A stretch of 45,251 nt of DNA from the sequence record NC_073061.1. One strand, given 5' to 3'. The notes beneath the pieces were generated by a model. The model ran no database searches. It had not been told where the DNA came from and saw nothing but the letters and a program-made list of their open reading frames with translations. A program made the position numbers and the translations under genes. Origin of the DNA: Escherichia phage vB_EcoS-101114BS4. This document shows, piece by piece, positions 1,741 to 44,045 of the stretch (the stretch's first letter is position 1; every line of letters starts with the position of its first letter).

Positions 1741-1780
1741 TTGACTTGCAACCAACATAGGGTCCATACTGCAACCAATC
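1741..1780 (+). promoter_or_regulatory. Sigma70-like promoter carrying two direct GCAACCAA motifs
   Basis: TTGACT (1741-1746), 17-18 bp spacer, CATACT; GCAACCAA at 1748 and 1771; 20 bp upstream of the ATG at 1799. Confidence 0.45.
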
Positions 1781-2159: not shown

Positions 2160-3302
2160 ATGCACCCGCAAACTAAAATTACCGACGAGCAATTGATCGC
2201 TGAATTGCAATCTGGCACTACCTCGAAAGATATTGCGAAGAAATACGGCCTTTCCCTTCGTAATGTCTATATGCGCAAAGCCCGCCTGTCGAAGAAAGGT
2301 ATTGGACACGGCAACGATGCTGTAATCCGTAAGCGCGTTGCCGATGGCTTCGGCGTTAAGCGTGTATCCGCCCTGGTGCGTGGCAATGGCGAAGAGGTCA
2401 TGTCCTGGGTCATCACCGAGCAGGACAAGGAGCGCCAACTTGAAGCAATGCGCGCCGTTGTCGAGGGTATGAACAGCGAAATCACACCGGCAGCACCAGT
2501 GAGCGCTCCGCCAGTCCCGATCCAGGCGCTTGACCTGCTTAACCTGTATACCGTGTCGGACTTCCACCTGGGAATGTTGGCATGGGGCGAGGAGACTGGC
2601 GAAGACTGGGATATGGCAATCGCCGAAGACCTTTTCTACCGCTGGTTTGTCGAAGCCTTCGCCCGCGCGCCGGACGCTGGCACTGCCGTAATCAATATCC
2701 TCGGTGATATGGCCCACTTTGACAGCCTCGACGCCGTTACGCCAGCCAGTGGTCACGTACTGGATGCCGATACCCGCTACCAGAAGTTGGTCCGCTACAT
2801 GATTCGCATGGTGCGCAACGTGGTTGAACTGGCGCTGCAAAAACACCATAAGGTCAAACTGCTAATCGTCCAGGGTAATCATGATGAGTCCGGTATGATT
2901 TGGCTGGCTGAAATGTTCAATACCCTGTACGAGAACGAGCCGCGCGTTGATGTGGACACGTCACCGGACGTATACAAAATGGTGCAGCACGGCAAGACAA
3001 CGCTGTTCTTCCACCACGGGCACAAAGCACGCTTTGACGCTATTGAGCCGGTCATGATTTCTAAATTCAGACAGGCTTTCGGGTCCAGTGAGTACAGCTA
3101 CGCGCACGTGGGCCACTTGCACCACCAGAAGATTGTCGAATCCCGTAACATGATTGTTGAACAGCACCGGACCCTTGCCGCGAAAGACGCATATGCAAGC
3201 CGTGGCGGTTGGATGTCCGGTCGCAGTGCAAACGTCATCACCTATAGCGCCAACTACGGCGAAGTAGCGCGCTTAACCATTAGCCCGGAAATGTTGAAAT
3301 GA
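2160..3302 (+). CDS. HTH domain fused to a calcineurin-like metallophosphoesterase
   Basis: N-terminal helix-turn-helix-like segment (TSKDIAKKYGLSLRNVYMRKARL); metallophosphoesterase motifs SDFH (DxH), GDMAH (GDxxH), GNHDE (GNHD), HHGH. Confidence 0.6.
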   Translation: MHPQTKITDEQLIAELQSGTTSKDIAKKYGLSLRNVYMRKARLSKKGIGHGNDAVIRKRVADGFGVKRVSALVRGNGEEVMSWVITEQDKERQLEAMRAVVEGMNSEITPAAPVSAPPVPIQALDLLNLYTVSDFHLGMLAWGEETGEDWDMAIAEDLFYRWFVEAFARAPDAGTAVINILGDMAHFDSLDAVTPASGHVLDADTRYQKLVRYMIRMVRNVVELALQKHHKVKLLIVQGNHDESGMIWLAEMFNTLYENEPRVDVDTSPDVYKMVQHGKTTLFFHHGHKARFDAIEPVMISKFRQAFGSSEYSYAHVGHLHHQKIVESRNMIVEQHRTLAAKDAYASRGGWMSGRSANVITYSANYGEVARLTISPEMLK

Positions 3303-3511
3303 TTAGACAAGTATTCATGAGCACGCAGGCCACCCGCCTGAAAGAGCTACGCAAACAGCTTGAAGGCTTGCGCCGATTCGAACGAACGGCAGCGGCAATA
3401 GGCATGACTATCAGTGAGCGGATCGAGATACTATCGCAAATACGCTACACAGAAGGCGCTATAAGCGAAGTAGAAAGCATGTTGACCAGATACTACGGTC
3501 GCGCCGTTTAA
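3299..3511 (+). CDS. Hypothetical protein
   Basis: 70-aa ORF overlapping the upstream stop (ATGA); start uncertain. Confidence 0.4.
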   Translation: MIRQVFMSTQATRLKELRKQLEGLRRFERTAAAIGMTISERIEILSQIRYTEGAISEVESMLTRYYGRAV

Positions 3512-7096: not shown

Positions 7097-8183
7097 TCAA
7101 CATATGGCGGATCGCATGATTCGCCGTCACATCTTCACCCAGCGCCTGAGCAATGACCAGGCGCGGCGGGTGTTGGCTATGTGGGAGAAGTTCCGGCCCA
7201 CGTTACTTGGCAAGCTGACCGAGTTACTTGATGGCAAAAAGTCCATGAATAACAAGGCACTGACCACACTGTTAACGCAAATCGACAAGACCGTCAAAAC
7301 GGAACTGCGCACCGAGTTTAAGGCGCTGGCTGAAAGCCTTCAGGAGTTTGCCGACACCGAGGCTGATTATCTTGCCGATACATTAACGGCAGCGATCCAG
7401 CCTGCGGTAGCCGTACCGGCTGTTGAGGTTGTTGGCGTAGTGACTGGCGCGCAGATTGCAGCCACGGCTATGAAAAACCCGTTCCAGGGAAACACCATGA
7501 TGCAATGGCCTGATTCACTTTCTGAGTGGACCAGGACGCAGATCGGGAATCAGGTGCGCGCTGGATTCATCCAGGGCAAGCCGACTATGGAAATTATCGC
7601 GGACGTAAAGCGCGCTCTCGGCGGTCGTAGCGCGCAAGCTATCTCAAGTGTTGTTAAGTCCGCAGTAAACCACTATGCGGCGACCGCCCGCGAGTTAATG
7701 GTGAAAGCTAATGACGATATTCTCGAAGGTCGCCAATGGTTGGCTACATTGGATACGCACACATCACCAATGTGCCAGCTACGCGATCGCCTGTTTTATC
7801 CTGTTGACGTCACTCCCGACACCAAAGGAAAGCGCGGCGGGAAAGTGGTGGCTGGATCACAATATGGCGCTGGTCCGGGCAAGCTACATTATTGCTGCCG
7901 TTCGACGGAGACGTGGAAAGTTAAAGGCATGGAAGATTGGCCCAGTGGTAAGCGTCCGGCACTGAAGGCTGACGCGGGTCGATTGCTGAGTGAGCAGGTC
8001 GACGCGCAGACTGATTTCTTCTCATGGGTGCAGCGCCAGCCGCGCCATATTCTGGAGGAATTATATGGGGTGCAGCGCGCAGACCAGATTATGCGCGGCG
8101 TGAAAGTGCCGAAGATGTTCACCGATACCGGCGAACTAATGACTATCGCACAGCTTAAAAACCGGGGGTTATGGCGTGATTAA
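7080..8183 (+). CDS. Head morphogenesis (minor head) protein
   Basis: 367-aa ORF overlapping the portal 3' end; position typical of F/gp7-like head morphogenesis proteins. Confidence 0.55.
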   Translation: MARTINQHMADRMIRRHIFTQRLSNDQARRVLAMWEKFRPTLLGKLTELLDGKKSMNNKALTTLLTQIDKTVKTELRTEFKALAESLQEFADTEADYLADTLTAAIQPAVAVPAVEVVGVVTGAQIAATAMKNPFQGNTMMQWPDSLSEWTRTQIGNQVRAGFIQGKPTMEIIADVKRALGGRSAQAISSVVKSAVNHYAATARELMVKANDDILEGRQWLATLDTHTSPMCQLRDRLFYPVDVTPDTKGKRGGKVVAGSQYGAGPGKLHYCCRSTETWKVKGMEDWPSGKRPALKADAGRLLSEQVDAQTDFFSWVQRQPRHILEELYGVQRADQIMRGVKVPKMFTDTGELMTIAQLKNRGLWRD

Positions 8184-8484
8184 ATATGCAGCGATTGGAC
8201 TGGTTATCGGTCTGGCGGTTGGATTCTGGCAGGGTGATTCCTACCGCACTGGCGTTGTGGCGCAAGAAGCGCAAGAAGCGCAAGCGAAAGCCCAACGGCA
8301 GCAAACTAAGGTTGTTGAGGGGTCGGTGAAGGCTGAGCAGGCCCGCGACGTGGAATACCGGACTATCACGAAAGAGGTTGTAAAATATGTTACGCGTCCT
8401 AACCGTCCTGATTGTAGTTTTGATGCTGAGCGCGTGCGGATCAAGCAAAGCGCCATCGACGCCGCTAACCGAGTCGGTCTATAG
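8176..8484 (+). CDS. i-spanin (Rz-like)
   Basis: GTG start; N-terminal transmembrane anchor IKYAAIGLVIGLAVGFW then charged, coiled-coil-like periplasmic region; the lipoprotein gene is embedded out of frame in its 3' end. Confidence 0.6.
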   Translation: MIKYAAIGLVIGLAVGFWQGDSYRTGVVAQEAQEAQAKAQRQQTKVVEGSVKAEQARDVEYRTITKEVVKYVTRPNRPDCSFDAERVRIKQSAIDAANRVGL

Positions 8485-8617
8485 ACCGCCTTGCACCTTT
8501 GAGAATGCATCGGCAGATCCAGACGAAGACTTGCTGGTTGATGTTAAAAATATGGAATGCGGGGCTAAGCTAAGGGCGCAAGTGCTGGAGTTGCAGAAAA
8601 TAATTCGGGGGCCGTGA
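8387..8617 (+). CDS. o-spanin (Rz1-like outer membrane lipoprotein)
   Basis: MLRVLTVLIVVLMLSACGSS signal peptide with lipobox LSAC; starts inside the i-spanin gene in another frame. Confidence 0.65.
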   Translation: MLRVLTVLIVVLMLSACGSSKAPSTPLTESVYRPPCTFENASADPDEDLLVDVKNMECGAKLRAQVLELQKIIRGP

Positions 8618-8630
8618 TGGCCCCTTTTTT
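8607..8630. terminator. Terminator, possibly bidirectional, between convergent genes
   Basis: gggggcc-gtgat-ggcccc hairpin followed by tttttt on + and by a T-rich tract on -. Confidence 0.7.
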
Positions 8631-8635
8631 GTTAA

Positions 8636-9151
8636 TTACAAACGCATCGGCATGATAACTAAAAAGGCACCTCCTTTGAACAGCACGCGTGTTGCCTTGT
8701 CTACTCCCTGAAATTCCAGTTTTAAGCCCTCAAACTTATGGTCGAACAATTTAGCAATTTTGCAGGCGTCGGACAGGTATGCCCCTTTAAACCCGATAGC
8801 CTCCACTTTATTGCTGACGAAAGACGTAACTCTTCTCCAGTCTGGAAATCGTCCGTCTACAATCTCGATGGGTATGGTAGCTATTAATACGTCTTTACTA
8901 TCGAAGAACGCGGCGGAGGTGCCGTCTATGTTGCAGTATTCGAATTTAGTAGGTAAGCGGCCTTTAATTGATACTATTTTACTTTCACCTTCTGGTACAA
9001 CCGCAGACCCGCAGAACAAACGGTGACCGTCTGTAGCCACGATGTATCCTTTCTCGTCGAAAAATACACCATTTAGGAAGTATCGGACGTCATTAGTTGC
9101 GGCGCATATCGTAGCGGCTTTAAGATCGGCGTAGTTAACTTTAATCATTTT
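8636..9151 (-). CDS. Truncated DnaN (beta sliding clamp)-like protein
   Basis: Motifs DVRYFLNG, VATDGHRL, VDGRFPDWRRV and C-terminal VIMPMRL match what I recall of E. coli DnaN domain II and its C-terminus; start taken at MIKVNY (GAGG RBS), alternative start at 9190. Confidence 0.6.
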   Translation of the reverse strand, partial: KMIKVNYADLKAATICAATNDVRYFLNGVFFDEKGYIVATDGHRLFCGSAVVPEGESKIVSIKGRLPTKFEYCNIDGTSAAFFDSKDVLIATIPIEIVDGRFPDWRRVTSFVSNKVEAIGFKGAYLSDACKIAKLFDHKFEGLKLEFQGVDKATRVLFKGGAFLVIMPMRL

Positions 9152-9205
9152 AATTTCCTCGTGGTTATGTAGACGATAATTCGGGGCCATTACAGCCCCC
9201 TTTTG

Positions 9206-9970
9206 TTAGCGCGGAATACCGCAGATTTCGTTTAACGTCTTCACATCCAGCGCTACTGCCGTTGACTTCGGCTTGTCCGGGTATGGAATGAATTGTTCAA
9301 CTTCAGGCCACGCCGCGATCAGCTTCTTGTCAGTATTGTGCATATCCAGCACGCCGGTAACGGTTAGTTTGAACGCGTCATACTTCGCACGCAATTCACG
9401 GCGGGCCTTGTCGTTGTGGTCCAGGCGCTTGCAGAAATCATGCTCTGCCGGGTAGTCTACGCGACCGCGTGGTAGATATATCGGCAGCGCTTTTCCGTCC
9501 TCATCCACTTCACATACTGACGCGAGCATAATTTCCTCGTACCCCGGTACAATATCGCTAACGTCAGGCGCGAGCGTATTCATATATTTTTCTTCCCAGT
9601 ATCCGCGGTGCTGGCGGTAGCGGTATCCGTCGCCGCTCATATGCAGGGTACGGATGTTACCGCCTGCGTTGATTTCGAAAGTGGAGCAGTAAACGCGTCC
9701 AATGCCTTTCTGACGGTCTTTGTTATAGCTATACGTCGCCTCGTCGGTGTAAACGCTGACGCCGTACATCTGCGACTGGTTATCGCGGATTTCTGCGATA
9801 TATGCGCGTAGCTCGGCGAACGTGTGAATGCCTTCTGGCATACAGTCCAGCGTAATTGCGTACGCCAGGTCGCGAGAGGCCATCATGATTGATTTGGCTT
9901 CAGTCGCGATTTCGTGGTCGCGCAGGATGTTAGCCAGAATCTGGTTTTTAATGTCTTTTGTCAGTCTCAT
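9206..9970 (-). CDS. Hypothetical protein, co-transcribed with the DnaN-like gene
   Basis: 254-aa ORF starting MRLTKDIKNQ with GAGGA RBS; no motif recognised; antisense to the flanking structural genes. Confidence 0.6.
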   Translation of the reverse strand: MRLTKDIKNQILANILRDHEIATEAKSIMMASRDLAYAITLDCMPEGIHTFAELRAYIAEIRDNQSQMYGVSVYTDEATYSYNKDRQKGIGRVYCSTFEINAGGNIRTLHMSGDGYRYRQHRGYWEEKYMNTLAPDVSDIVPGYEEIMLASVCEVDEDGKALPIYLPRGRVDYPAEHDFCKRLDHNDKARRELRAKYDAFKLTVTGVLDMHNTDKKLIAAWPEVEQFIPYPDKPKSTAVALDVKTLNEICGIPR

Positions 9971-9990
9971 TTGTGTTTCCTCATTGTTGG

Positions 9991-10017
9991 TGTGCAACCA
10001 ATATAGTGCAACCAATA
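9991..10017. promoter_or_regulatory. Divergent control region with two direct TGCAACCAAT motifs
   Basis: TGCAACCAAT at 9993-10002 and 10008-10017, between the minus-strand start at 9970 and the scaffold start at 10120. Confidence 0.5.
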
Positions 10018-10119
10018 CCTGTATTGCAAGCGAATTTTGCGATTATTTTTATCGCTGATAATATTAAAGGCGTGAAGTCGAGCGGGTGGCCCGCTCTGCC
10101 ACGATCCCAGGGGGATAGC

Positions 10120-10824
10120 ATGGAAATTACTAAAGCAGAATATGACGCGTTGCCGGAAGGTATGAAGGCGCTTTTTGTTGCCAATGGCGACGGGTATAAA
10201 TCAACATTTATGTCCGCTGAGGAAGTACAGGCGGAAATCAAGGGTCTGAAAGACAACAACGCAAAGCTGGTGAGCGAGAAGAAAGCAGAAGCTGAACGCC
10301 GCGCCGAAGCCGAGCGCCTTGCGAAAGAGAAAGAGGAAGCCGCCGCGCGCAAAAATGGCGACCTCGAAGCGATCGATAAATCCTGGAAGGATAAGTTGGC
10401 AAAACACGAAGCTGACACATCGGGGAAAATCGAATCCTATCGCAAGCAGATCCACGACCTTACTATCGGCAGCGCTGCCAAAGACCTGGCATCGAAGCTA
10501 TTTGGTAAGAATGCTGGCATCATGCAACGCCACGTAATGGAGCGCCTCGCGCTGGAAGACGGTGAAGACGGCAGCTTGAAAGTGCGTGTCTTGCAGGATG
10601 GCAAACCGTCCGCGCTGACTATGGACGAGCTTGAAAAAGAGTTCCGTAATAACGCTGATTTTGCATCCGTCCTGGCTGGCACGCCCGCCGGTGGCGCTCC
10701 GAGCAAACCGACACAGGTTATCGAAGATGCGAAGTCTAAAATCACGATGGGCCATAGCTTCGGTATCACGGACCTGACGAAACAGGCAGGGGATATCATC
10801 GCTAAGATGGGCGACGACGAGTAA
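10120..10824 (+). CDS. Scaffolding protein (putative)
   Basis: 234 aa, charged and coiled-coil-rich (AEAERRAEAERLAKEKEEAAARK), directly upstream of the major capsid gene. Confidence 0.6.
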   Translation: MEITKAEYDALPEGMKALFVANGDGYKSTFMSAEEVQAEIKGLKDNNAKLVSEKKAEAERRAEAERLAKEKEEAAARKNGDLEAIDKSWKDKLAKHEADTSGKIESYRKQIHDLTIGSAAKDLASKLFGKNAGIMQRHVMERLALEDGEDGSLKVRVLQDGKPSALTMDELEKEFRNNADFASVLAGTPAGGAPSKPTQVIEDAKSKITMGHSFGITDLTKQAGDIIAKMGDDE

Positions 10825-28950: not shown

Positions 28951-28972
28951 TGCAACCAACCTATTGGTTGCA
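28951..28972. promoter_or_regulatory. Perfect palindrome TGCAACCAA-CCTA-TTGGTTGCA (candidate operator)
   Basis: 9-bp inverted arms with a 4-bp spacer, overlapping the stop codon of the HAD gene and 50 bp upstream of the next start. Confidence 0.6.
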
Positions 28973-30613: not shown

Positions 30614-30623
30614 TTAAGATAAT

Positions 30624-30648
30624 GCAACCAATCTAATTACGCAACCAA
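30624..30648. promoter_or_regulatory. Pair of direct GCAACCAAT motifs
   Basis: GCAACCAA at 30624 and 30641 (17-bp spacing) between the stop of gene 30650..30973 and the internal terminator. Confidence 0.5.
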
Positions 30649-30649
30649 T

Positions 30650-39709: not shown

Positions 39710-40228
39710 TTAATCTTCTAATTCGAAATAAGTTTCGACGATTGCTTTTAATTCCTGGTGGAACTCTTCCACGTCGTCATCTTCCAGCTTGGCAACGGAT
39801 TTAATTTCGAATTCTTCCAGCAGGTCGTCAAATTCGTCGTTTGCGTCGTCGTCATCACCGCCAGCAATAATAGCGGCATACTGCTTGATTTCGTCGCGCA
39901 TCTCTTTCAGCGGATCGGCATCTTTCTTGCCTTTACCTTTCGCCGGTGCTTTCTTAGATTTCGCCGGGGCTTCTTCTTCGTCGTCCGCGTCGTCTTCTTC
40001 TACGGCTTCTTTCTTAGCCTTGCCCTTTGCTGGCGCTTTTTTGGTCTTAGCCGGTGCTTCGTCTTCAGCGTCGTCATCTTCGACTACTTCTTCTTTTGCC
40101 TTGCCCTTAGCCGGGGCTTTCTTCGCTTCCTGTTTACCAACGGCAGCGCCAGCAGTTTCATAATGCTTAGCGATGGTTTCCAGTGCTACTACGCCGCGTG
40201 TGATCAGGTTTACGATTTGCTCAAACAT
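39710..40228 (-). CDS. Lys/Ala/Glu-rich repeat protein (histone H1-like composition), first gene of the leftward operon
   Basis: ATG 40228 (MFEQIVNL) with GGAG RBS; repeats EAPAKTKKAPAKGKAKKE; the upstream in-frame ORF extension is treated as 5' leader. Confidence 0.55.
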   Translation of the reverse strand: MFEQIVNLITRGVVALETIAKHYETAGAAVGKQEAKKAPAKGKAKEEVVEDDDAEDEAPAKTKKAPAKGKAKKEAVEEDDADDEEEAPAKSKKAPAKGKGKKDADPLKEMRDEIKQYAAIIAGGDDDDANDEFDDLLEEFEIKSVAKLEDDDVEEFHQELKAIVETYFELED

Positions 40229-40424
40229 TGTATATCTCCGATTGGTTAAGTTTAGGTGTCGGCAGTCAACTTCGTCGGTGGCCTTAACATAGTGCCAGGT
40301 TACGCGTTCTCCCTTTCGGGTAGTGGACCTGGTTATATAATCACGGTTGGGAATCCTGACACTTCGATCCGGCCCCTGCGTTGCCCCTCTCCAGTTTGCG
40401 TCCTGCATCCTGTCGACGGAGTGA

Positions 40425-40633: not shown

Positions 40634-40963
40634 ATGCATATCAACGACGCTATCGAAATGTTAACTAAGACCGTAAGCGGTGAGACAAGCCGGTCCTGGG
40701 CTTATACCGATGCCGTTGGTGCGGCGTTATTTGAAATCGAACGCCTGCGCAGTGTCGAAAAAGAATTGCGCGCCAAGCTGGAATTACTCAACGGTACGGC
40801 AGCAAGCAAGCTGCAAAAACACAATGAAGAAATGGAAGAATACAAAAAGCAGGTTATCCGTTTACGCGACGAGGGCAAGTCCTGGGCGATGATTGCCGAG
40901 TTGACCGGAATTAATCAGAGCACCGTGCGCTCCTGGGTACGCAATAATAAAACTTCTAAGTAA
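40634..40963 (+). CDS. Putative transcriptional regulator with C-terminal HTH
   Basis: 109 aa; C-terminal SWAMIAELTGINQSTVRSWVRN is HTH-like; first gene of the rightward unit. Confidence 0.5.
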   Translation: MHINDAIEMLTKTVSGETSRSWAYTDAVGAALFEIERLRSVEKELRAKLELLNGTAASKLQKHNEEMEEYKKQVIRLRDEGKSWAMIAELTGINQSTVRSWVRNNKTSK

Positions 40964-43238: not shown

Positions 43239-43318
43239 TTTTTGCGCGCATTGGTTGCCAAATTGAGTGTTTTTAGCTGGTCGCATTGGTTGCCGTGTAG
43301 TGTAAATATAGTGAATAG

Positions 43319-43527
43319 TTATGCAGTTTTATTGCATAAAGTAAGCGGGACAAAAAGCGGGACAGACAGGGGGCGGGACAAAGCGGGACAGCACCCCTGT
43401 CCCGCCCCGGATGGCGCGGCTTGCAGGGGGGCGGGACAGGCGGGACAAACCCCAGTCTTTCAGACTAGACGGGGGTCAGTTGGCCCCCCTCGTCTGAGAC
43501 TGCATAAAATCCGGGATTGCATAATGT
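43319..43527. repeat. Copy B of the duplicated iteron-plus-hairpin element, flanked by inverted TGCATAA motifs
   Basis: Six GCGGGACA repeats (43345-43450), hairpin cagtctttcagactagacgggggtcagttggcccccctcgtctgagactg (43453-43502), ttatgcag at the left and ctgcataa at the right edge. Confidence 0.85.
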
Positions 43528-43718
43528 ACGGCAGCATGATGTGAATTGCTGTCGTCGACGAACTAGGCAACCAATGCGAGTTGCAAAATGGAGAGTGAAA
43601 AATGCAGTTTGCAGTTACAGCGGATAGGGATCGGCTTTTTCATACGCATGATTAATATTGGTTGCAATCAGCCTGGCACCTTGCTAGATTGGTTGCTCAC
43701 CAACATGAGGACTGAACA

Positions 43719-44045
43719 ATGAGAGCATTAATCTGGAATTACTCACTGGCAATGGCGGCGGCACAAGAAGCGGCGGAGTTCGCCGGTGAAGGGGCGGAAG
43801 CGGTCGAAAGACTAGCGGCAGCGTGGTCCGTTGTTCGCTTCGCGCAGCAGGCCATCGCCTGGATGCTTGAGCGCCGCTTCGACACGATGGCGGAGATCCA
43901 GCCGTTGGCGAACGCTATCCAGGACTACGCGCTTGCATTTGCCCGTGAGCGCCTGGCGTATCGCTTCGGTATTGGCGATAAGGCAGTGACAAACGTCGCC
44001 AGGATTAAAGCCCAGCGCGAACTATTCGCCCAGCTTGCGAAATAA
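43719..44045 (+). CDS. Hypothetical protein
   Basis: 108-aa Ala-rich ORF with GAGGA RBS. Confidence 0.5.
   Translation: MRALIWNYSLAMAAAQEAAEFAGEGAEAVERLAAAWSVVRFAQQAIAWMLERRFDTMAEIQPLANAIQDYALAFARERLAYRFGIGDKAVTNVARIKAQRELFAQLAK

What the first reader, a model, noticed from the sequence alone, without database searches (positions are those of the whole stretch)
8636..10119. Two-gene antisense insert between spanin and scaffold genes with its own motif-bearing divergent promoter
Genes 9206..9970 (254 aa, no recognisable motif) and 8636..9151 (DnaN-like) are transcribed opposite to the structural genes, bounded by a bidirectional terminator (8607..8630) and a control region with two TGCAACCAAT copies (9993, 10008). 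Structural modules of tailed phages are normally co-directional, so this looks like an acquired accessory unit. The unknown gene is probably a functional partner of the half-clamp.
Basis: inference. Interest (0 to 1): 0.65.

Follow-up and report, generated by a model that had tools for sequence, protein, structure and literature searches.

The report
Variable accessory-gene slot in a coliphage
This is the swappable antisense accessory slot in the head-gene block of a known Dhillonvirus coliphage. It holds two independent, dispensable genes: the already named Nmad5 gene, and a cut-down bacterial sliding clamp that keeps only its partner-binding pocket. They are not a dedicated two-gene partnership.

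Summary
The window is a Dhillonvirus genome, 99.5% identical to Escherichia phage vB_EcoS_WF5505 over the region. Both genes, the terminator and the repeated motif are real, with small coordinate errors.

The "254 aa, no motif" gene is a full-length Pfam Nmad5 protein (E 1e-54). It is 83% identical to the ΦSMS22 Nmad5, whose K296E (= K216E here) change escapes the Tmn defence and whose deletion is viable.

The "DnaN-like" gene (true CDS 8636..9148, 170 aa) is beta-clamp domain II plus the last half of domain III. It keeps 12 of 12 subsite I residues of the clamp's peptide-binding pocket. It lacks domain I and the whole dimer interface.

Related phages carry Nmad5 alone (most), the mini-clamp alone, both in either order, an extra ORF, or an internally deleted Nmad5, all behind one conserved control region. 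So this is a variable accessory slot and the two genes are not obligate partners.

TGCAACCAAT is a genome-wide intergenic motif, not private to this unit.

Both genes sit in DNA-replication operons in other phages. The likeliest role is early, dispensable replication or host-interaction factors. The mini-clamp's biochemical role is untested.

The parts
8607..8631 (+). Intrinsic terminator ending the terminase-to-spanin late transcript. It may also act weakly on the minus strand to end the antisense transcript.
   Evidence: 8-bp stem, 6 GC pairs, T-run.: -16.4 kcal/mol, z -3.19 on +; -13.6, z -2.45 on -. WF5505 annotators also list terminators in this region.
8636..9148 (-). Mini beta-clamp gene (170 aa): DnaN domain II plus the C-terminal half of domain III. 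Accessory cassette with low G+C.
   Evidence: phrog_3007 E 1.9e-54. AF2 model pLDDT 93.5. Foldseek top hits are the E. coli beta clamp. Family profile against PDB E ~1e-27, matching E. coli residues 137-258 and 314-366. Pocket residues conserved. G+C 44.8%. Start codon corrected.
8592..8634 (.). Direct repeat, copy 1 (the terminator region attached to the clamp cassette).
   Evidence: 8592-8634 and 9168-9208 align with each other, and both match the single terminator region of SECphi18.
9168..9208 (.). Direct repeat, copy 2 (hairpin 9183-9199). This is the copy that travels with the 3' end of Nmad5 and marks the cassette junction.
   Evidence: The fold is not better than shuffles (z -0.7 on +, -0.45 on -) and there is no U-tract on the minus strand, so read-through from Nmad5 into the clamp gene is likely.
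9206..9970 (-). Nmad5 gene (254 aa, PF18757). K216 is the site of the published Tmn-escape substitution.
   Evidence: E 1.1e-54, full length; 83% identical to ΦSMS22 Nmad5, and K296 there equals K216 here. K216 is present. AF2 pLDDT 83.8; no structural relative of known function.
9993..10016 (+). Two copies of the genome-wide motif TGCAACCAAT (9993-10002 and 10007-10016). They overlap the -10 and spacer of the antisense promoter, so they look like operators.
   Evidence: Conserved in 7 Dhillonviruses whichever gene comes first in the slot. Intergenic enrichment.
10000..10029 (-). Sigma-70-like promoter for the antisense slot: TTGCAA, 18 nt, TATATT.
   Evidence: 9 of 12 matches. The sequence is conserved with a 17-18 nt spacer in the relatives read. 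The promoter function itself is inferred.
10037..10064 (+). Candidate promoter for the scaffold and capsid genes (TTGCGA, 16 nt, TAATAT). Its spacer contains the inverted repeat GCGAT-N7-ATCGC.
   Evidence: Read directly from the sequence. It scores 8 of 12, below the scan threshold. Inferred.
10071..10116 (+). Conserved hairpins in the 5' leader of the scaffold mRNA (core GAGCGGG-TGG-CCCGCTC).
   Evidence: -23.3 kcal/mol, z -1.9. Conserved in 7 phages. Function unknown.

Best explanation
Region 8636..10119 is the variable antisense accessory slot of the Dhillonvirus head-gene block.

**Layout.** A conserved control region (9971..10119) carries a sigma-70-like promoter pointing leftwards. Two copies of a genome-wide operator-like motif overlap that promoter. 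Whatever cassette lies downstream is transcribed against the late genes, and the unit is bounded by the spanin terminator.

**Contents in this phage.** Two independent, dispensable cassettes sit in the slot:
1. Nmad5, the resident occupant in most of the genus.
2. A compositionally foreign mini beta-clamp, joined on through a duplicated terminator segment.

**Nmad5.** It belongs to a phage-only family with no recognisable enzyme fold. In related phages it sits at the head of the PolA/SSB/exonuclease replication operon. In Dhillonvirus it modulates sensitivity to the Tmn defence.

**Mini-clamp.** It keeps the clamp's peptide-binding pocket and has lost domain I and the ring-closing interface. 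It most likely works as a soluble pocket module that binds clamp-binding motifs, either as a decoy for host replication and repair proteins or as an adaptor for the phage replisome. It probably does not work as a sliding ring.

**Shown:** gene identities, architecture, cassette independence, pocket conservation, motif distribution.

**Inferred:** promoter and operator function, early timing, read-through co-transcription, pocket-binding activity and its targets.
For: **Identity.** 99.5% to WF5505 over 2 kb, with 157 related phage records.

**Slot variants**
- Nmad5 only: SECphi18 and SM_S22. In total 143 records hold full-length Nmad5.
- Clamp plus Nmad5: the window, WF5505, rolling and CHD5UKE2. 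CHD5UKE2 also has an extra 109-aa ORF.
- Reversed order: EP23.
- Clamp only: AV129, SO-1, TheodorHerzl.
- Internally deleted Nmad5: Teewinot.
- Junctions fall at short repeats. The control region is constant across variants.

**Nmad5**
- Pfam E 1e-54.
- Published genetics in PMC11846954.
- The window has the phrog_3127 / DUF2800 / Enc34-SSB / PolA operon but no Nmad5 in it. Guernseyvirinae-like contigs have Nmad5 right after phrog_3127.

**Mini-clamp**
- Structure and profile matches to DnaN.
- Subsite I is 12 of 12 identical and subsite II 6 of 8 identical to E. coli. These residues are near-invariant across 56 family members, against a mean column conservation of 0.52 (residue lists from PMC11139829).
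- The dimer-interface residues I78, F106, I272, L273, R103, E298 and E304 all lie in segments that are absent.
- The family has 1,114 representative clusters at E<=1e-30, and the best 150 are 146-302 aa.
- It lies directly after DNA polymerase in Edwardsiella phage PEi21.

**Leader.** The Nmad5 leader resembles that of ORF 43719 in the small-gene cluster at the genome end.
Against: - There are no expression data. The promoter is a 9-of-12 consensus match, and such matches are as common in shuffled sequence (2 found, 2.5 expected).
- The factor that binds the motif is unknown.
- Pocket residues are also the most conserved residues of DnaN in general, so their retention proves selection but not a decoy role.
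- No phage ORF in the window has a terminal clamp-binding motif, so a phage partner is not evident.
- A novel oligomer that closes a ring was not tested, because no multimer prediction was available.
- The biochemical role of Nmad5 remains unknown. The published escape allele behaves as a gain of function (deletion does not escape Tmn), which fits no simple model.
Confidence: 0.65

Rival explanations
1. One reading: the two genes form a dedicated operon, and Nmad5 is the functional partner of the half-clamp.
For: In this phage they are adjacent, co-oriented and probably co-transcribed, since no promoter or efficient minus-strand terminator lies between them. Both families occur in replication operons of other phages. 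Salmonella phage SaI_NFG_5577 has both, though 14 kb apart.
Against: Their distributions are independent. About 135 Dhillonvirus records have Nmad5 only, three phages have the clamp only, the order is reversed in EP23, and neither gene is intact in Teewinot. Salmonella phages, the largest group with the clamp (98 records), do not appear among the listed Nmad5 matches. Nmad5 has no conserved clamp-binding motif (alignment).
Confidence: 0.07
2. The mini-clamp is a genuine processivity or tethering factor for the phage-encoded PolA, perhaps as a novel oligomer. Four copies of 1.5 domains would give the six domains of a ring.
For: It has the clamp fold. Every lineage examined that carries it also has a PolA-type replicase. 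In PEi21 it lies immediately downstream of the polymerase gene.
Against: It lacks domain I and the canonical interface. The Dhillonvirus form has also lost one inner-ring helix (DSSP). It is absent from more than 90% of Dhillonviruses, which share the same PolA. No terminal clamp-binding motif is found on PolA or any other window ORF. Earlier authors judged such short homologues dispensable (PMC3201878).
Confidence: 0.15
3. Nmad5 is a DNA-modification enzyme, as it is called in the Tmn paper, and the unit protects or marks phage DNA.
For: The family name reflects its presence in thymidine-hypermodification cassettes of M6/Yua-like phages (PMC9476957). Tmn sensitivity maps to it.
Confidence: 0.12
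4. The slot is an anti-defence or defence-interaction locus. Its occupants are kept or exchanged according to the host's immune repertoire.
For: The only phenotype known for either gene is a change in sensitivity to the Tmn defence. Rapid presence/absence turnover among near-identical genomes is typical of such loci. In podovirus-like contigs the mini-clamp lies in early small-gene clusters, once next to an AcrF31-like gene. This reading is compatible with the best explanation rather than exclusive of it.
Against: Wild-type Nmad5 does not protect against Tmn, and a separate gene (ORF35) is the anti-Tmn factor. Neither protein matches PADLOC models. No defence phenotype is known for the mini-clamp.
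Confidence: 0.3

Closest known systems
Nmad5 of Dhillonvirus ΦSMS22 / ΦSMA8 (Yamashita et al. 2025, PMC11846954)
   Same: Same gene at the same genomic position. 83% identical over all 254 residues, with K216 and the flanking invariant L217/W221/P222 conserved.
   Different: ΦSMS22 and ΦSMA8 carry Nmad5 alone in the slot. Here a mini-clamp cassette is added downstream. The 334-aa annotation in ΦSMS22 is an over-extended ORF that runs into the scaffold gene.
Bacterial beta sliding clamp DnaN (E. coli, PDB 1MMI/2POL)
   Same: Homologous fold. Domain II and the last beta-alpha-beta-beta-beta unit of domain III are retained, along with the motifs RY(Y/F)LNG, TDGHRL, DGRFPD(Y/W)RRV and MPMRL. All 12 subsite I pocket residues are identical.
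   Different: 170 aa instead of 366. No domain I, no first half of domain III and no dimer interface. It scores far below the DnaN equivalog cut-off (28 against 137.65 bits). It is not expected to form the canonical head-to-tail ring.
Short polIII-beta homologues of phages (Kazlauskas & Venclovas 2011, PMC3201878). GenBank notes such as 'DNA Pol III b subunit fragment' (Bcep43 gp15) and 'possible moron gene product' (SO-1 gp7).
   Same: Same family (phrog_3007). [quoted passage not shown]
   Different: Earlier work did not analyse which clamp functions survive. This analysis shows that the pocket is kept and the interface is lost. It also shows that the family is large (1,114 clusters at E<=1e-30) and often antisense inside head modules.
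Phage morons / accessory-gene hot spots
   Same: Presence/absence polymorphism among close relatives, insertion between a terminator and a promoter, and deviant G+C for the clamp cassette.
   Different: The promoter belongs to the slot, not to the individual cassettes. Nmad5 has native composition and is nearly fixed in the genus.
Phage proteins that exploit or block the host clamp: T4 gp45 with gp33/gp55, Mu MuC with the beta clamp (PMC12867686), Twort Gp168 (PMC8565349)
   Same: Precedents for phages rewiring clamp-partner interactions, including for late transcription.
   Different: Those act on or through a complete ring clamp. Here the phage encodes a ring-incompetent pocket module. No link to transcription was tested.

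Membership tests
Pfam PF18757 Nmad5 | Full-length match to the family HMM above the gathering score | tested here: met
   186 bits against a cut-off of 27, residues 1-253 on profile positions 1-206. phrog_1965 E 1.6e-59.
Pfam PF18757 Nmad5 | Family-conserved N-terminal MRLT motif and C-terminal T..KL...WPE / A.AL...TLN..CG.P motifs | tested here: met
   Alignment of 34 members: L217, W221, L246, N247 and P253 are invariant. M1-T4, P222, A238, A240, L241, T245, C250 and G251 are at least 90% conserved.
Pfam PF18757 Nmad5 | Neighbourhood of nucleotide or DNA hypermodification genes (the origin of the name) | tested here: not met
   The window has no hydroxymethylase, kinase, aGPT-Pplase or rSAM gene. 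That context is seen only in Yuavirus MP1412.
Pfam PF18757 Nmad5 | DNA- or nucleotide-modifying activity | not testable with these tools
   No enzyme fold detected. The activity has never been demonstrated, according to the papers read.
DnaN beta sliding clamp (TIGR00663; Pfam DNA_pol3_beta_1/2/3) | Three clamp domains of about 120 aa each (about 366 aa in total) | tested here: not met
   170 aa. Matches E. coli residues 137-258 and 314-366 only. TIGR00663 28 bits against a cut-off of 137.65. PF02767 24.2 bits against 27.
DnaN beta sliding clamp (TIGR00663; Pfam DNA_pol3_beta_1/2/3) | Head-to-tail dimer interface (I78, F106 with I272, L273; R103, E298, E304) | tested here: not met
   All these residues lie in segments with no counterpart in the protein.
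DnaN beta sliding clamp (TIGR00663; Pfam DNA_pol3_beta_1/2/3) | Hydrophobic clamp-binding-motif pocket between domains II and III | tested here: met
   Subsite I is 12 of 12 identical and subsite II 6 of 8 identical. The residues are near-invariant in 56 family members (residue list). Binding itself was not tested.
DnaN beta sliding clamp (TIGR00663; Pfam DNA_pol3_beta_1/2/3) | Encircles DNA and confers processivity | not testable with these tools
   No multimer prediction or biochemistry was available.
Short phage polIII-beta homologues (phrog_3007) | End-to-end HMM match, length about 170-250 aa, phage-encoded | tested here: met
   phrog_3007 E 1.9e-54, residues 1-171 of the 171-residue query that included one extra codon. 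245 phage records. The best 150 library hits are 146-302 aa.
RusA-like Holliday junction resolvase (the label PHROGs gives phrog_3007) | RusA fold or family match | tested here: not met
   No RusA hit in Pfam or NCBIfam. Structure and profile match DnaN only. The label is a misannotation.
Moron / accessory cassette | Present or absent among otherwise collinear close relatives | tested here: met
   Six slot arrangements found in the genus.
Moron / accessory cassette | Composition deviating from the surrounding genome | tested here: inconclusive
   Met for the mini-clamp: 44.8% G+C against 54.4%, lowest 0.2% of windows. Not met for Nmad5: 52.3%, with GC3 like its neighbours.
Two-gene functional module (obligate partners) | Co-occurrence and conserved adjacency across genomes | tested here: not met
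   Independent distributions and variable order.

The most novel reading that the evidence does not exclude
The mini-clamp family is a ring-incompetent, free-standing copy of the beta-clamp's peptide-binding pocket. The family has more than 1,000 sequence clusters and is widespread in PolA-encoding phages. Under this reading, phages use the protein to capture proteins that carry clamp-binding motifs. Candidate targets are the host Pol III alpha, delta and epsilon subunits, Hda, Pol IV/V, MutS/L and ligase. Capture would either sequester these proteins from the host replisome or hand them to the phage replisome. That would be a new kind of host-takeover or replication-hijacking factor, based on mimicry of a hub protein's docking site.
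Probability: 0.25. Interest if true: 0.7.

Novelty: already known. Interest (0 to 1): 0.35.

Why it matters
For genome annotation, it corrects several errors:
- The "unknown" gene is Nmad5.
- The PHROGs label "RusA-like resolvase" for the clamp family is wrong.
- The deposited start codons of both genes are over-extended in some records.

For phage biology, the Dhillonvirus head block contains a promoter-equipped slot whose cargo is exchanged by recombination at short repeats. That makes it a natural site for engineering therapeutic phages. The same genus is already being engineered around Nmad5 and Tmn.

The most useful lead is the mini-clamp. It is a large, uncharacterised phage family that preserves exactly the docking pocket of a central bacterial hub protein, which is also an antibiotic target. 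A simple binding experiment could show whether phages use pocket mimicry.

Tried and rejected
- **PADLOC and NCBIfam scans of both proteins.** Nothing beyond a sub-threshold DnaN hit.
- **Rfam scan of 8400-10300.** No known RNA family.
- **Is the 232-aa protein at 39710..40408 a diverged Nmad5 paralogue?** It has the same length as the Guernseyvirinae Nmad5 clade. hhalign gives probability 0.1%, so the idea is rejected. The protein is phrog_3127.
- **Terminal clamp-binding motifs in all window ORFs of at least 60 aa.** None found.
- **Literature searches.** 'DnaN-like' with 'phage' returned nothing. 'Sliding clamp' combined with 'moron' and 'Dhillonvirus' returned nothing relevant. A search on the related genus names returned 56 papers, none dealing with the clamp-like gene. 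Only the 2011 survey notes the short forms.
- **Is the internal hairpin 9183-9199 a functional terminator?** It is not more stable than shuffled sequence and has no U-tract on the transcribed strand. It is better explained as a recombination scar.
- **Is TGCAACCAAT a private operator of this unit?** Rejected because of its genome-wide intergenic distribution.
Full report
**What the window is.** A megablast of 8400-10400 finds Escherichia phage vB_EcoS_WF5505 at 99.5% identity over the full 2 kb, plus 157 related records. Almost all are Dhillonvirus, the HK578-like siphoviruses of E. coli. The WF5505 annotation shows the surrounding order: terminase, portal, MuF-like head morphogenesis protein, i- and o-spanin on the + strand; then two minus-strand genes; then scaffold, major capsid and tail genes on the + strand. 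PHROGs confirms the spanins and the scaffold.

**Check of the observation.**
- Both minus-strand ORFs exist.
- Nmad5 runs 9206..9970. The ATG is preceded by GAGGA, and the N-terminal MRLT is invariant in the family.
- The clamp-like CDS starts at ATG 9148, not 9151, giving 170 aa. That is the start conserved in relatives, where the upstream sequence is different. The 184-aa ORF annotated in WF5505 begins inside a hairpin and is not supported by homologues.
- The hairpin at 8607-8625 is a good + strand terminator and a weaker minus-strand one.
- TGCAACCAAT occurs exactly at 9993 and 10007.

**The motif is genome-wide.** With at most one mismatch the window has 18 copies against 3.4 expected, and none of 100 shuffles reaches 18. 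In WF5505, 14 of 21 copies lie in the 7% of the genome that is non-coding, at operon boundaries and often in pairs. In the control region, the two copies overlap the spacer and the -10 of a minus-strand promoter-like site, TTGCAA-18-TATATT at 10029-10000. The whole control region, including both copies, is conserved in seven Dhillonviruses regardless of which gene follows it. The leader upstream of Nmad5 (ATTGGTTGCAcaccaacaATGAGGA...) is nearly the same as the leader of ORF 43719, in the small-gene cluster at the genome end. I infer an operator-controlled promoter of a shared temporal class. There are no expression data.

**Gene 1 is Nmad5.**
- The 254-aa protein matches Pfam PF18757 end to end (E 1.1e-54).
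- It is 83% identical to the ΦSMS22 protein studied by Yamashita et al. 2025.
- In that study a single K296E change let the phage escape the Tmn defence. The equivalent change is K216E in ΦSMA8 and in the numbering used here.
- Reverting the change restored sensitivity. Deleting the gene gave viable phage that was still Tmn-sensitive. The gene could not be cloned, apparently because it is toxic (PMC11846954).
- The 334-aa annotation in ΦSMS22 runs through the control region into the scaffold gene and is over-extended. K216 is present here, next to the invariant L217, W221 and P222.

**Is Nmad5 a modification enzyme?** The name comes from M6/Yua-like phages, where the gene sits inside the thymidine hypermodification cassette (PMC9476957). 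This window has no such genes, only Dam. In Guernseyvirinae-like phages Nmad5 follows a phrog_3127 gene at the head of the operon DUF2800 exonuclease / Enc34-type SSB / PolA. The window has the same operon (39710 down to 34037, minus strand) but without Nmad5. In lambdoid mEp235 a homologue of the C-terminal domain lies in the PL operon between Nun and cIII. Calling Nmad5 a 'DNA modification enzyme' is therefore not supported here. An association with replication or early genes is.

**Gene 2 is a pocket-only mini-clamp.**
- The model is confident (pLDDT 93.5, pTM 0.89), and its best PDB matches are E. coli beta clamps.
- A profile of 56 family members hits beta clamps at E about 1e-27. It covers E. 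coli residues 137-258 (domain II) and 314-366 (the last beta-alpha-beta-beta-beta unit of domain III).
- I used the residue lists in a 2024 review (PMC11139829). All 12 subsite I residues are identical: R152, L155, T172, G174, H175, R176, L177, P242, R246, V247, V360 and M362.
- Six of eight subsite II residues are identical. N320 is K, and V344 could not be placed.
- These residues are almost invariant across the family, while average column conservation is 0.52.
- The dimer-interface residues (I78, F106, I272, L273, R103, E298, E304) all fall in missing segments.
- The protein scores far below the DnaN equivalog cut-off. The PHROGs name 'RusA-like resolvase' is a misannotation.
- The family is large: 1,114 representative clusters at E<=1e-30, and the best 150 are all 146-302 aa.
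- Kazlauskas and Venclovas noted in 2011 that five of twelve phage polIII-beta homologues are short and cover only domains 2 and 3. I found no functional study.

**The two genes are independent cassettes.** The slot arrangements within the genus are:

| Arrangement | Phages |
|---|---|
| Nmad5 only | SECphi18, SM_S22 and most others (143 records with full-length Nmad5) |
| Clamp distal, then Nmad5 | this window, WF5505, rolling |
| Clamp, Nmad5 and an extra 109-aa ORF | CHD5UKE2 |
| Nmad5 distal, then clamp | EP23 |
| Clamp only | AV129, SO-1, TheodorHerzl |
| Internal 642-bp deletion of Nmad5 | Teewinot |

- Only 14 records (8 phages) in the genus have the clamp gene.
- Window 8592-8634 and 9168-9208 both align with the single terminator region of SECphi18. 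The clamp cassette is therefore flanked by a duplicated terminator segment.
- 9154-9166 and 9976-9988 both match one site in the clamp-only phages.
- The clamp CDS has 44.8% G+C against 54.4% for the window, in the lowest 0.2% of equal-sized windows. Nmad5 has native composition.

**Context of the mini-clamp elsewhere.**
- It lies antisense inside the head module in Kagunavirus, in Guernseyvirinae phage SE1 and in Burkholderia phage Bcep43.
- It lies at the end of a ParB/methyltransferase operon in Deseoctovirus C1.
- It lies in early small-gene clusters of podovirus-like contigs, once next to an AcrF31-like gene.
- It lies directly downstream of the DNA polymerase in Edwardsiella phage PEi21.
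- All of these phages examined have PolA-type replicases.

**Most likely mechanism.** The slot is an insulated antisense transcription unit, with a terminator on one side and a conserved operator-bearing divergent promoter on the other. It expresses dispensable factors that interface with DNA replication and with host systems. For the mini-clamp, what the sequence shows is a retained docking pocket without ring-forming parts. The inference is a soluble module that binds clamp-binding motifs, as a decoy or as an adaptor. For Nmad5, the only established fact is genetic: it modulates Tmn sensitivity and is non-essential. Its conserved C-terminal peptide follows a low-confidence linker and looks like a docking tail, but this is speculation.

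**Verdict.** It is already annotated and partly studied, and the proposed partnership is contradicted by comparative genomics. The open question worth an experiment is what the pocket-only mini-clamp binds.

Noticed in passing
window 1747-1779, 26109, 28951-28972, 30623-30649, 40432, 43250-43697, 44242: TGCAACCAAT recurs at operon boundaries across the genome, often in pairs 13-35 bp apart. At 28951-28972 it forms a perfect palindrome (TGCAACCAAC-CT-ATTGGTTGCA). At 1741-1779 and 40449-40420 it sits between good -35 and -10 hexamers. It looks like the operator of a phage-wide regulator. No binding protein is known.
   Followed up: partly
window 40634-40963 (+): A 109-aa protein with a C-terminal HTH / sigma-70 region-4-like domain (Pfam HTH_23, Sigma70_r4_2; phrog_9366, labelled 'transposase'). 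It is encoded next to a motif-bearing divergent promoter region and just upstream of the primase gene. It is a candidate for the factor that binds the TGCAACCAAT motif.
   Followed up: no
window 43640-43722 compared with 10035-9968 (minus strand): The 5' leaders of ORF 43719 (108 aa, phrog_9839) and of Nmad5 are near-identical (ATTGGTTGC[A/T]CACCAACA(A)TGAGGA...). This suggests a shared promoter-leader cassette, and that Nmad5 is expressed with the small genes at the genome end.
   Followed up: partly
window 8176-8617: The i-spanin (8176-8484) and the overlapping o-spanin (8387-8617) are encoded in the head module, about 7 kb from the holin and endolysin genes (about 514-1521). This split lysis cassette is conserved in the genus.
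   Followed up: no
window 39710-34037 (minus strand); L014 and L015: The replication operon phrog_3127 / DUF2800 PD-(D/E)XK nuclease / Enc34-type SSB / PolA is syntenic with Guernseyvirinae-like phages. There Nmad5 sits right after phrog_3127. In Dhillonvirus that position lacks Nmad5, which suggests the gene moved into the head-module slot.
   Followed up: partly
L023 (Teewinot) 1756-1920; window 9231-9872: Phage Teewinot (41.8 kb) keeps only the first ~33 and last ~8 codons of Nmad5. This is a 642-bp deletion and a natural knock-out.
   Followed up: yes
L004 (CHD5UKE2) 3114-3443: A third slot occupant: a 109-aa ORF (phrog_24635, unknown function) inserted between Nmad5 and the control region in CHD5UKE2.
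   Followed up: partly
Database annotations: WF5505 gp19, SM_S22 CDS6, phrog_3007: Annotation problems. The WF5505 clamp-like gene is called from an upstream ATG (184 aa). SM_S22 Nmad5 is called as 334 aa and overlaps the scaffold gene. PHROGs (and therefore many RefSeq records) name the mini-clamp family 'RusA-like Holliday junction resolvase'.
   Followed up: yes
window 10071-10116: Two adjacent hairpins lie in the scaffold mRNA leader (GAGCGGG-TGG-CCCGCTC within a longer stem, then CCCAGGGGG just before the start codon). They are conserved in seven phages. The second one includes the ribosome-binding region, so translational control or an RNA-processing site is possible.
   Followed up: no
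window 10024-10029: The -35-like hexamer TTGCAA is its own reverse complement. It is placed so that it could serve both the leftward (Nmad5) and a rightward promoter.
   Followed up: no
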